A stretch of 64,000 nucleotides of DNA from Escherichia coli (GTDB taxonomy: Bacteria > Pseudomonadota > Gammaproteobacteria > Enterobacterales > Enterobacteriaceae), in the NCBI RefSeq assembly GCF_003018235.1, contig NZ_CP027437.1. The stretch is one strand, 5' to 3'. Position numbers and translations under genes: made by a program. Each line of letters opens with the position of its first letter. Within the stretch, counting starts at the first letter, position 1. The notes beneath the pieces are model-generated. The model worked only from the letters and a program-made list of their open reading frames with translations. It was not told the DNA's origin and did no database searches. Positions 27,114 to 28,610 of this stretch are shown one piece after another.

Positions 27114-27130
27114 GCCGGATGCGGCGTAAA
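27114..27130. repeat. Left half of a REP palindromic unit (gccggatgcggcgtaaa) split by the IS insertion
   Basis: Matches the first half of the E. coli REP consensus; the complementary half (gctttatccggctaca) lies at 28568-28583 beyond the IS. Confidence 0.7.
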
Positions 27131-27655
27131 TTGAACTGCACCCCAAATGTTGGACACAATCTGACATCTGAAGGTGCAGTTTATGAAACATTCATTTGAA
27201 GTAAAACTTGCCGCTGTAAATCATTACCTGGCCGGTCATGCAGGCATCATTTCTACGGCAAAACTCTTTCAACTTTCTCACACCAGCCTCTCACACTGGA
27301 TTAATCTTTTTCTTCTTCACGGTCCTCAGGCACTGGATTGCAGACACAAGCGTAGCTATTCTCCTGAAGATAAACTTTGCGTGGTTCTTTATGCTCTCGG
27401 GCATTCTGAGTCTCTACCCCGGGTAGCTGCCCGGTTTAACATTCCCAGCCACAACACGGTTAAAAACTGGATAAAAGGCTACCGCAAATCTGGTAATGAG
27501 GCCTTTATCAGGCGCAGGAAGGAGAAAAGCATGACCCGTTCTGATGATACCCATGAAAACGAGGCAAACATGACGCCGGAAGAGATGAAGAATGAGCTGC
27601 GTTATCTTCGCGCAGAAAATGCATATCTGAAAGCCATGCAGGAGCATCTCCTGGA

Positions 27656-28563
<908 letters not shown>

Positions 28564-28610
28564 AAATGCTTTATCCGGCTACATAGCGATAAGCCTGCCA
28601 ATGTTGCGAC

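What the first reader, a model, noticed from the sequence alone, without database searches (positions are those of the whole stretch)
27655..27662. A7G slippery run at the orfA/orfB junction of the IS
orfA ends just downstream of aaaaaaag, and orfB is open in the -1 frame from this run, the arrangement that gives an OrfAB fusion transposase in IS3-family elements. Both frames are uninterrupted, so the copy is probably transposition-competent.
Basis: partly seen in the sequence, partly recalled or inferred. Interest (0 to 1): 0.25.

Follow-up and report, generated by a model that had tools for sequence, protein, structure and literature searches.

The report
IS1397 transposase frameshift site
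The A7G run is the expected ribosome-slipping site that joins the two reading frames of a complete copy of the known E. coli insertion sequence IS1397, so it is real but ordinary and already annotated in public genomes.

Summary
AAAAAAAG lies at 27655-27662. In the orfA frame it reads GA|A AAA AAG, the canonical -1 heptamer A_AAA_AAG (27656-27662). orfA stops 40 nt downstream (27702-27704). The -1 frame is open from 27596 to 28531.

The element (27132-28563, 1432 bp) is IS1397, of the IS3 family, IS150 group. It is 99.7-99.8% identical to copies that RefSeq annotates as "IS1397 family transposase, programmed frameshift". It has TG...CA inverted repeats, an intact DDE triad and a 4-bp AAAT duplication. 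It sits in the loop of a REP palindrome between hybG and yghU, and a near-identical strain has the empty site.

A published survey (PMC4066793) already lists IS1397 as an A_AAA_AAG frameshift cluster with an upstream SD-like sequence and a 38-nt hairpin. I recover both: AGGAG at 27640-27644 and the hairpin at 27666-27703.

Frameshifting itself is inferred, not measured. The 49 codons of the -1 frame before GTG 27809 have no start codon yet are conserved in 79 relatives, so translation must enter them from orfA.

One side observation is less routine. IS150, an ISKpn1-like element and 55 other relatives place the heptamer 27 nt further upstream, followed by a covarying 11-bp stem. IS1397 has neither at that position.

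Novelty: already known. Interest is low.

The parts
27114..27131 (.). Left half of the target REP/palindromic unit (GCCGGATGCGGCGTAAAT). Its last 4 nt, AAAT (27128-27131), are the left copy of the target-site duplication.
   Evidence: The empty site in E. coli LR-31 reads GCCGGATGCGGCGTAAATGCTTTATCCGGC with a single AAAT.
27132..27156 (+). Left inverted repeat (IRL) of IS1397, TGAACTGCACCCCAAATGTTGGACA, starting with 5'-TG.
   Evidence: It is unique in the window. It matches the reverse complement of the right end at 21 of 25 positions.
27132..27183 (+). Strong RNA hairpin at the left end. It pairs IRL bases 27132-27142 with 27173-27183, covering the orfA Shine-Dalgarno sequence (AGGTG) and the A of the ATG. 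It could form only in transcripts that start outside the IS, such as read-through from hybG.
   Evidence: -31.5 kcal/mol, z = -4.62, and 0 of 200 shuffles fold as well. The protective role is an inference by analogy with other IS elements.
27183..27704 (+). orfA (173 codons plus stop), with helix-turn-helix domains and a C-terminal leucine-zipper-like region (...ENAYLKAMQEHLLEKK...).
   Evidence: Pfam HTH_28 6.7e-18 and HTH_Tnp_1 1.3e-8.
27629..27635 (+). Position homologous to the slippery heptamer of IS150 and the other relatives. In IS1397 it reads GAAAGCC (codons L-K-A), which is not slippery.
   Evidence: The gap-free alignment A1 places the relatives' A_AAA_AAG at columns 21-27. IS150 itself is shown.
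27640..27644 (+). Shine-Dalgarno-like AGGAG inside orfA. [quoted passage not shown] Putative upstream frameshift stimulator.
   Evidence: It falls within the 6-17 nt rule of PMC4066793. That paper's Table S8 scores the SD as present in 100% of its IS1397 cluster.
27656..27662 (+). Slippery heptamer A_AAA_AAG in orfA phase, the proposed site of the -1 tandem slip of tRNA-Lys. The reported A7G run is 27655-27662.
   Evidence: It is identical in the three other IS1397 copies compared, including a 3.2%-divergent one.
27666..27703 (+). 38-nt irregular hairpin starting 3 nt after the heptamer: a 4-bp outer stem and a 7-bp bulged inner stem (27672-27678 with 27690-27697). It can extend to 27662-27709. 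Putative downstream stimulator. The orfA stop codon (27702-27704) lies in its 3' arm.
   Evidence: -12.4 kcal/mol, and the extended form -17.6 kcal/mol with z = -2.8 (boundaries chosen after the fact). It matches the published description of 38 nt, spacer 3 and first stem 4 bp. No covariation test was possible.
27677..27683 (+). Second A-run (G_AAA_AAA, codons GAG AAA AAA) inside the overlap, in the hairpin loop. A minor alternative slip site.
   Evidence: It is not a canonical X_XXY_YYZ heptamer, and it reads GAAAAAG in the divergent copy L002.
27662..28531 (+). orfB-frame part of the OrfAB fusion. The -1 frame is open from 27596. It encodes HTH_21, the rve integrase core and rve_2. The modelled fusion is 27183..27662 joined to 27662..28531 (449 aa, junction ...LLEKK|APGAG...).
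   Evidence: NF033516 scores 387.5 bits across the junction.
27809..27811 (+). GTG, the first possible start codon in the orfB frame. A possible start for a separate OrfB, which is not excluded.
   Evidence: The upstream -1-frame codons are conserved in relatives.
28064..28354 (+). Catalytic DDE triad codons: D295 (28064), D355 (28244), E391 (28352), with K398 seven residues after E.
   Evidence: Pfam rve 1.3e-21.
28539..28563 (+). Right inverted repeat (IRR), ending ...GGGGTTCAGTTCA-3' (terminal CA).
28564..28579 (.). Right copy of the AAAT duplication (28564-28567) followed by the right half of the REP palindrome (GCTTTATCCGGC).

Best explanation
The run is the programmed -1 ribosomal frameshift site of an intact, recently inserted copy of IS1397 (IS3 family, IS150 group).

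Most ribosomes translating orfA read GAA AAA AAG CGC and terminate at 27702-27704, giving the small DNA-binding protein OrfA. A minority slip. With the two tRNA-Lys on AAA (P site) and AAG (A site), the ribosome moves back one base onto A AAA AA and continues with GCG CCA GGA in the orfB frame. This yields a 449-aa OrfAB (...HLLEKK-APGAGEKTKVIR...) that joins the OrfA helix-turn-helix and zipper region to the HTH_21 and DDE catalytic domains. OrfAB is the transposase.

The slip is probably stimulated by two elements. One is an internal Shine-Dalgarno-like AGGAG (27640-27644) pairing with 16S rRNA, 13 nt before the second motif base. The other is a modest hairpin starting 3 nt after the motif (27666-27703).

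Shown here: the motif, its phase, the open frames, the element's identity and completeness, and the conservation of the motif and of the -1-frame coding sequence. Inferred: that slipping occurs at this heptamer, its efficiency, and the roles of the SD-like sequence and the hairpin.
For: 1. Sequence and phase are as described.
2. Identity: 99.7-99.8% over all 1432 bp to copies annotated 'IS3-like element IS1397 family transposase, programmed frameshift', present in 3496 of 5426 complete E. coli genomes.
3. The fused product matches NF033516 in one stretch across the junction, 387.5 bits against a cut-off of 160. Pfam finds helix-turn-helix domains in OrfA and HTH_21, rve and rve_2 in OrfB. The DDE triad plus K is intact.
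4. An in-phase A_AAA_AAG or A_AAA_AAA is present in 60 of 61 distinct overlaps from relatives with 50-58% OrfB identity.
5. The 49 -1-frame codons before the first possible orfB start are conserved in 79 relatives. Between two IS1397 variants, most of the 46 differences fall at third positions of the orfB frame, and only 14 change an amino acid.
6. PMC4066793 shows that A_AAA_AAG is among the most efficient -1 motifs in E. coli. It lists IS1397 as cluster A_AAA_AAG_5 with SD and hairpin in 100% of 59 genes (hairpin 38 nt, spacer 3). It calls the frameshift 'safely inferred'.
7. My folds recover the same hairpin.
Against: - No frameshift measurement for IS1397 was available. The primary IS1397 papers are not in the searchable library, and the 2014 survey calls the case inferred rather than demonstrated.
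- The downstream structure is weak evidence. Folds of 52-141 nt around it are no more stable than shuffles (z -0.3 to -0.8, and +1.1 once the first 6 nt are excluded). The spacer of 0-3 nt is shorter than the usual 4-10 nt. In the divergent copy L002, one substitution breaks the outer stem (A27667T) while another strengthens the inner stem (G27696A).
- An SD-like tetramer in a 12-nt window is not rare by chance.
- A second A-run lies 15 nt downstream in the same overlap.
Confidence: 0.9

Rival explanations
1. The shift to the orfB frame happens at the second A-run (G_AAA_AAA, 27677-27683), not at A7G. The resulting fusion differs only in 7 residues (...EKKRQELEKK-TKVIR...).
For: The run lies inside the orfA/orfB overlap, and its A-site codon AAA can re-pair with AAA in the -1 frame. 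In the divergent copy L002 it reads G_AAA_AAG, which ends in the shifty AAG codon.
Against: The P-site tRNA would have to re-pair on GAA, which is not a canonical heptamer. The run sits in the loop of the predicted hairpin with no structure after it. It varies between IS1397 copies, whereas A7G is invariant. The published survey scores A_AAA_AAG as the motif.
Confidence: 0.04
2. There is no functional frameshift. OrfB is made on its own from GTG 27809 and acts as the transposase, and the A-run is incidental.
For: GTG 27809 is the first start-type codon in the frame and coincides with the start of the Pfam HTH_21 match. AAGGA lies 12 nt upstream of it. From my own knowledge, unverified here: separate OrfB products are known for some IS3 members, including IS150.
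Against: The 49 start-less -1-frame codons upstream of the GTG are conserved as protein in 79 relatives. The IS3 transposase model aligns continuously through the junction. The in-phase heptamer is conserved in 60 of 61 relatives. A separate OrfB may exist alongside OrfAB but cannot explain these constraints.
Confidence: 0.03
3. The frame change is made by RNA polymerase slipping on the A7 template run (transcriptional realignment), giving mRNAs with an altered number of A's, rather than by the ribosome.
For: Homopolymeric A/T runs support transcriptional slippage in some IS elements, for example the IS1447 group listed. The run also behaves as a DNA-level indel hot spot: an ISKpn1-like copy has lost one A.
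Against: From general knowledge, efficient transcriptional slippage usually needs about 9 or more identical bases, and this run has 7. The motif is kept in the exact ribosomal X_XXY_YYZ phase and ends in G in most relatives, which matters for tRNA re-pairing but not for polymerase slippage. SD-like and hairpin elements accompany it.
Confidence: 0.02
4. The copy is a decaying relic, so the motif no longer has any function in this genome.
For: The copy differs from the commonest IS1397 protein at Q49, V215 and I401, and at one base just inside the left end (27157). No sigma-70-like promoter was found by the simple scan.
Against: It is full length at 1432 bp, with both frames open, both inverted repeats, an intact DDE triad and a perfect 4-bp duplication. 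The three substitutions are polymorphisms shared with other annotated copies: Q49 in 21 of 76, I401 in 33 of 76 and V215 in 5 of 76. An identical protein exists elsewhere. A strain 99.9% identical in the flank has the empty site, so the insertion is recent.
Confidence: 0.05

Closest known systems
IS1397 (IS3 family, IS150 group; E. coli; inserts into the loops of REP/palindromic units)
   Same: The length is the same (1432 bp) and identity is 99.7-99.8%. The ends, the orfA/orfB layout, the heptamer, the SD-like sequence and the 38-nt hairpin match cluster A_AAA_AAG_5 of PMC4066793. It is inserted with a 4-bp duplication in the loop of a REP palindrome, the published target preference (PMC1525189).
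   Different: Only allelic differences: 5 nt and 3 aa from the E. coli 042 copy. This is a member of IS1397, not a variant.
IS150 frameshift cassette (A_AAA_AAG plus a stem-loop 6 nt downstream; listed as a proven case in PMC4066793)
   Same: The heptamer sequence, the -1 direction, the OrfA / OrfAB logic and the protein family are the same. OrfB is 50.7% identical.
   Different: In IS150, an ISKpn1-like element and 55 further relatives, the heptamer lies in codons Y-L-K-K of 'ENAYLKK'. It is followed after 6 nt by a 10-11-bp stem GCCUUAG.../...CUAAGGC that covaries (92% of cells paired, 5 compensatory pairs). IS1397 reads ENAYLKA at that position, does not form that stem in register, and has its heptamer 27 nt (9 codons) further downstream, in what is the stem's loop in relatives.
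dnaX and IS911 type -1 frameshift signals (upstream SD-like sequence, A_AAA_AAG, downstream hairpin)
   Same: The three-part layout is the same. GGAG ends 13 nt before the second motif base. By my recollection this distance is 12 nt in dnaX, and the tested stimulatory range is 6-17 nt.
   Different: The genes are unrelated, and in dnaX the product is shorter rather than longer. The IS1397 hairpin is weaker and closer to the motif (spacer 3 nt). No experimental dissection of the IS1397 signal was found.
ISKpn1 (Klebsiella pneumoniae; also targets palindromic units)
   Same: A 1445-bp element in K. pneumoniae ATCC 13883 (L018/L037) has a similar left end (TGGACTGCACCCCAAAAGTTGGACAC). OrfB is 55% identical. 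Both copies sit in the centre of palindromes.
   Different: It keeps the ancestral IS150-type position of heptamer and stem. Calling it ISKpn1 rests on length and host recalled from memory, not on a database name.

Membership tests
IS3 family insertion sequence | Two consecutive, partly overlapping reading frames, with orfB in the -1 frame relative to orfA | tested here: met
   orfA is 27183-27704. The -1 frame is open over 27596-28531, giving a 109-nt overlap.
IS3 family insertion sequence | DDE transposase with the DD(35)E motif plus K/R seven residues after E (rve domain) | tested here: met
   D295, D355, E391 and K398 are present. Pfam rve scores 1.3e-21. NCBIfam NF033516 scores 387.5 bits against a cut-off of 160.
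IS3 family insertion sequence | Imperfect terminal inverted repeats ending 5'-TG...CA-3' | tested here: met
   IRL is TGAACTGCACCCCAAA... and IRR is ...TTTGGGGTTCAGTTCA, matching at 21 of 25 positions. The repeat finder missed them because no exact 9-nt seed exists.
IS3 family insertion sequence | Short (3-4 bp) direct target duplication | tested here: met
   AAAT lies on both sides. The empty site in LR-31 has a single AAAT.
IS3 family insertion sequence | OrfAB fusion protein actually produced by -1 ribosomal frameshifting | not testable with these tools
   Only indirect evidence is available: the in-phase motif, conservation of start-less -1-frame codons, and the continuous HMM match across the junction. 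The literature calls it 'safely inferred'.
IS1397 (the named element) | Near-identity over the full length to elements named IS1397 | tested here: met
   Identity is 99.7-99.8% over 1432 of 1432 bp to many RefSeq copies named 'IS3-like element IS1397 family transposase'.
IS1397 (the named element) | Insertion into the loop of an E. coli REP/palindromic unit | tested here: met
   The target is GCCGGATGCGGCGT[AAAT]GCTTTATCCGGC. Two other copies also sit in such palindromes. The published specificity is cited in PMC1525189.
IS150-type frameshift cassette | Heptamer in the Y-L-K-K codons, followed after 6 nt by a 10-11-bp GCCUUAG.../...CUAAGGC stem | tested here: not met
   IS1397 has GAAAGCC at the homologous position. 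Its rows do not pair in register in alignment A1, whereas 92% of cells pair overall. Its heptamer is displaced by 27 nt.
SD-plus-hairpin stimulated -1 PRF signal (criteria of PMC4066793) | SD-like GAGG/GGAG/AGGA 6-17 nt before the second motif base | tested here: met
   GGAG at 27641-27644 is 13 nt before 27657. The criteria are quoted.
SD-plus-hairpin stimulated -1 PRF signal (criteria of PMC4066793) | Hairpin of 17-140 nt starting 4-10 nt after the motif, and more stable than its surroundings | tested here: inconclusive
   A 38-nt hairpin is present but has a 3-nt spacer. It folds at -12.4 kcal/mol. Shuffle z-scores are not significant unless the boundaries are chosen after the fact. The paper nevertheless counts it. 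Too little sequence variation exists for a covariation test.

The most novel reading that the evidence does not exclude
Within the IS150 group, IS1397 has rebuilt its frameshift cassette. The ancestral heptamer (Y-L-K-K codons) and the covarying 11-bp stem found in IS150, an ISKpn1-like element and 55 other relatives are gone. A new in-phase A_AAA_AAG has arisen 27 nt downstream, in the former A-rich loop. It has a GGAG at the same 13-nt upstream distance and a new 5' arm pairing with the region of the old 3' arm. This would be a natural example of a recoding signal moving along a gene while keeping its output, and it changes 9 residues of the OrfAB linker.
Probability: 0.75. Interest if true: 0.3.

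Novelty: already known. Interest (0 to 1): 0.12.

Why it matters
For annotating this window, it settles that 27132-28563 is one mobile element encoding OrfA and a frameshifted OrfAB, not two independent genes or a pseudogene. It also shows that the hybG-yghU spacer was recently disrupted at a REP element.

Biologically the frameshift sets the OrfA:OrfAB ratio and therefore how often the element moves, but this is textbook IS3 biology and already catalogued for IS1397.

The only point with some wider value is the displaced cassette. It offers a small natural experiment on how recoding signals relocate and swap stimulators.

Tried and rejected
- The repeat finder reported no inverted repeats. 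The inverted repeats are real but lack a 9-nt exact seed, so I compared the ends directly.
- My first Pfam call used the wrong frame and was repeated.
- The primary IS1397 papers (PMC94167, PMC95333, PMC169884) are not held. What they tested about the frameshift could not be checked.
- The search for homologous proteins listed only near-identical IS1397 proteins. It was useful for allele frequencies but not for diversity.
- A plasmid tblastn search showed a gap between IS1397 (over 95% identity) and everything else (under 60%). Diversity therefore came from the genome-contig scan.
- Whole-region folding gave no significant stability. I do not claim the hairpin on thermodynamic grounds alone.
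- I considered a stem CUCCUGG (27648-27654) / CCAGGAG (27665-27671), and GCAUCUC (27644-27650) / GAGGUGC (27703-27709), both enclosing the heptamer. I rejected them as stimulators because a ribosome on the heptamer would already have melted the 5' arms.
- Rfam has no family matching the region.
- The second AAAAAAG at 28458-28464 is out of phase in orfB and irrelevant.
- The promoter scan found no sigma-70-like site in the IS, so the promoter remains unidentified.

Full report
**1. The observation**

The sequence at 27650-27665 is cctggAAAAAAAGcgc, with A7 at 27655-27661 and G at 27662. orfA (ATG 27183, with AGGTG 8 nt upstream; an alternative GTG at 27174) reads ...CTG GAA AAA AAG CGC... and stops at TGA 27702-27704. 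The in-phase slippery heptamer is therefore A_AAA_AAG at 27656-27662.

The frame of orfB is -1 relative to orfA. It is open from 27596, after a TGA at 27593-27595, to the stop at 28529-28531. The two frames overlap for 109 nt.

AAAAAAG alone is not unusual. There are 18 copies in the window on both strands, against 14.7 expected. One copy in the correct strand and phase inside a 109-nt overlap has a chance of about 0.005 by my arithmetic.

**2. What the element is**

- The run lies in a 1432-bp element, 27132-28563. It has ends TGAACTGCACCCCAAA... and ...TTTGGGGTTCAGTTCA, which match at 21 of 25 positions and terminate in TG/CA.
- It is 99.7-99.8% identical over its whole length to many RefSeq E. 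coli loci named "IS3-like element IS1397 family transposase". Matches occur in 3496 of 5426 complete genomes, with full-length copies in 1707.
- OrfA carries helix-turn-helix domains. The -1 frame carries HTH_21, rve and rve_2.
- The catalytic residues D295, D355 and E391, plus K398, are intact.
- The modelled fusion (27183..27662 joined to 27662..28531, 449 aa) hits NCBIfam NF033516, IS3 family transposase, at 387.5 bits against a cut-off of 160. The hit is one uninterrupted stretch from residue 62 to 442, which runs straight across the junction at residue 160.

**3. Insertion site and age**

The element is flanked by AAAT on both sides and splits the palindrome GCCGGATGCGGCGT-AAAT-GCTTTATCCGGC, 26 nt after the hybG stop codon. 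E. coli LR-31 is 99.9% identical over the 3.1 kb upstream. It has the uninterrupted palindrome with one AAAT and a 69-nt hybG-yghU spacer.

This confirms the boundaries and the 4-bp duplication, and shows that the insertion is recent. It also matches the published REP-loop specificity of IS1397 (PMC1525189). Copies in E. coli 042 and FDAARGOS_448 likewise sit in REP loops, with AAAC and GAAC duplications.

**4. Is this copy intact?**

It differs from the 042 copy at 5 nt. Three of these change amino acids (Q49, V215, I401) and one lies at 27157, just inside the left end. Among 76 full-length annotated IS1397 proteins these are shared polymorphisms: Q49 in 21, I401 in 33 and V215 in 5. One database protein (P0001) is identical to the window's product apart from the junction residue.

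"Probably transposition-competent" is therefore reasonable, but it is an inference.

**5. Evidence that the frames are joined by translation**

- The -1 frame has no ATG, GTG or TTG between 27596 and GTG 27809. Yet the 49 codons from 27662 to 27808 (APGAGEKTKVIRSLRCGHCQSDLLKAAGLARSTLYYQLSLQKAKDKYAD) find the homologous segment in 79 related elements. Median identity is 41% and the best E-value is 2e-9. A conserved coding stretch without a start codon must be entered from orfA.
- In 61 distinct orfA/orfB overlaps from relatives (OrfB 50-58% identical, from Bacillaceae to Enterobacteriaceae), 60 carry an in-phase A_AAA_AAG or A_AAA_AAA. The exception is a Klebsiella copy that has lost one A from the run.
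- The heptamer is invariant between IS1397 variants that differ at 46 of 1432 positions. Most of those differences are silent in the orfB frame; only 14 change an amino acid.

**6. Mechanism and stimulators**

A_AAA_AAG is among the three most efficient -1 heptamers measured in E. coli, because tRNA-Lys(UUU) is very shift-prone on AAG (PMC4066793).

Upstream, AGGAG at 27640-27644 places GGAG 13 nt before the second motif base. This is inside the experimentally stimulatory 6-17 nt window quoted in that paper.

Downstream, the minimum-energy fold gives an irregular hairpin:
- The 38-nt form is 27666-27703 at -12.4 kcal/mol.
- The extended form is 27662-27709 at -17.6 kcal/mol.
- The inner stem pairs 27672-27678 with 27690-27697.

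This is exactly what Table S8 of PMC4066793 lists for its IS1397 cluster A_AAA_AAG_5: SD in 100% and hairpin in 100% of 59 genes, hairpin 38 nt, spacer 3 nt, first stem 4 bp. Table S4 footnotes the frameshift as "safely inferred" rather than demonstrated.

My own statistics for the hairpin are weak. Folds of larger segments are no better than shuffles, and only the boundaries chosen after the fact reach z = -2.8. In the divergent copy, one change breaks the outer stem and one strengthens the inner stem.

I therefore rate the heptamer as near-certain, the SD-like element as likely, and the hairpin as plausible. Rfam has no family for this region.

**7. Rivals**

- A slip at the second A-run (G_AAA_AAA, 27677-27683) is possible but non-canonical. 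That run is variable between copies and has no structure after it.
- Independent OrfB from GTG 27809 may occur alongside the fusion. It cannot explain the conserved start-less codons or the conserved heptamer.
- Transcriptional slippage on only 7 A's is unlikely, and it would not require the exact ribosomal phase.
- A dead relic is contradicted by the element's completeness and recent arrival.

**8. Comparison with relatives: a displaced cassette**

IS1397 aligns without gaps to its relatives from the OrfA motif ENAY to the OrfB motif (E/S)LR (alignment A1).

In IS150 itself, in a 1445-bp ISKpn1-like element from K. pneumoniae, and in 55 other relatives, the heptamer occupies the codons Y-L-K-K. 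After a 6-nt spacer it is followed by an 11-bp stem, GCCUUAGUUCA...UGAAUUAAGGC. That stem is strongly supported by covariation: 92.3% of cells are paired, five pairs show compensatory changes, and controls slid by 1-3 columns pair at only 20-48%. PMC4066793 cites IS150 as a proven stem-loop-stimulated case.

IS1397 reads Y-L-K-A (CTG AAA GCC) at that position. Its two rows fail to pair in register. Its heptamer lies 27 nt (9 codons) further downstream, in what is the A-rich loop of the relatives' stem. A GGAG sits at the same 13-nt distance that 33 of 57 relatives show at their own site.

The IS1397 cassette is therefore not positionally homologous to that of IS150, although it does the same job. 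This is a modest evolutionary curiosity. I could not establish whether it has been noted before.

**9. Verdict**

It describes a known, annotated and previously catalogued feature of a known insertion sequence. Novelty: already known. Interest is low (0.12). The displaced-cassette observation is the only part that might merit a short follow-up.

Noticed in passing
window 27132-28563 compared with L002 2701-4132 (E. coli ST648) and L003 (FDAARGOS_448): 74 complete E. coli genomes have an IS1397 at the hybG 3' junction. In ST648 it is at exactly the same nucleotide, with identical 45-nt flanks and the same AAAT duplication, yet the IS differs at 46 of 1432 positions (3.2%). By contrast, the window copy is within 5 nt of copies at other loci. 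This suggests either independent hits of two IS1397 variants on the same REP loop or conversion between copies. FDAARGOS_448 has the IS in a different REP of a longer spacer (GAAC duplication).
   Followed up: partly
window 27132-27183: The left end can fold into a very stable hairpin (-31.5 kcal/mol, z = -4.6) that pairs the inverted-repeat tip with the orfA Shine-Dalgarno sequence and the first base of the ATG. Since hybG is upstream on the same strand, this would silence translation of read-through transcripts, a known kind of IS self-protection. Not tested further.
   Followed up: partly
window 27662-27664 (residue 161 of OrfAB): RefSeq/PGAP proteins for IS1397 mostly read ...EKK-P-PGAG... 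(67 of 76). This implies a join at 27663 (re-reading C). A tandem slip on the heptamer predicts ...EKK-A-PGAG.... The annotated junction residue is probably an artefact of where the pipeline places the shift.
   Followed up: yes
L018 943-2387 and L037 944-2387 (Klebsiella pneumoniae ATCC 13883): Two copies of a 1445-bp IS (probably ISKpn1) are each inserted at the centre of a perfect palindrome. The second copy has lost one A from the slippery run (A6G to A5G), which truncates orfA and removes the heptamer. The slippery run is thus also a DNA-level indel hot spot.
   Followed up: partly
loci L004-L083: Among species-representative genomes, nothing between 58% and 97% OrfB identity to IS1397 was returned. 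The best-scoring relatives (up to 58%) are from Bacillaceae and other Bacillota, slightly above the enterobacterial ones (51-55%).
   Followed up: no
alignment A1 columns 4-9 (relatives): In relatives the GGAG 13 nt upstream of the heptamer comes from the codons ATG GAG (M-E). It is present in 33 of 57, including many low-GC Bacillaceae where GAA would be the commoner Glu codon. This hints at selection for the SD-like sequence. Not tested statistically.
   Followed up: no
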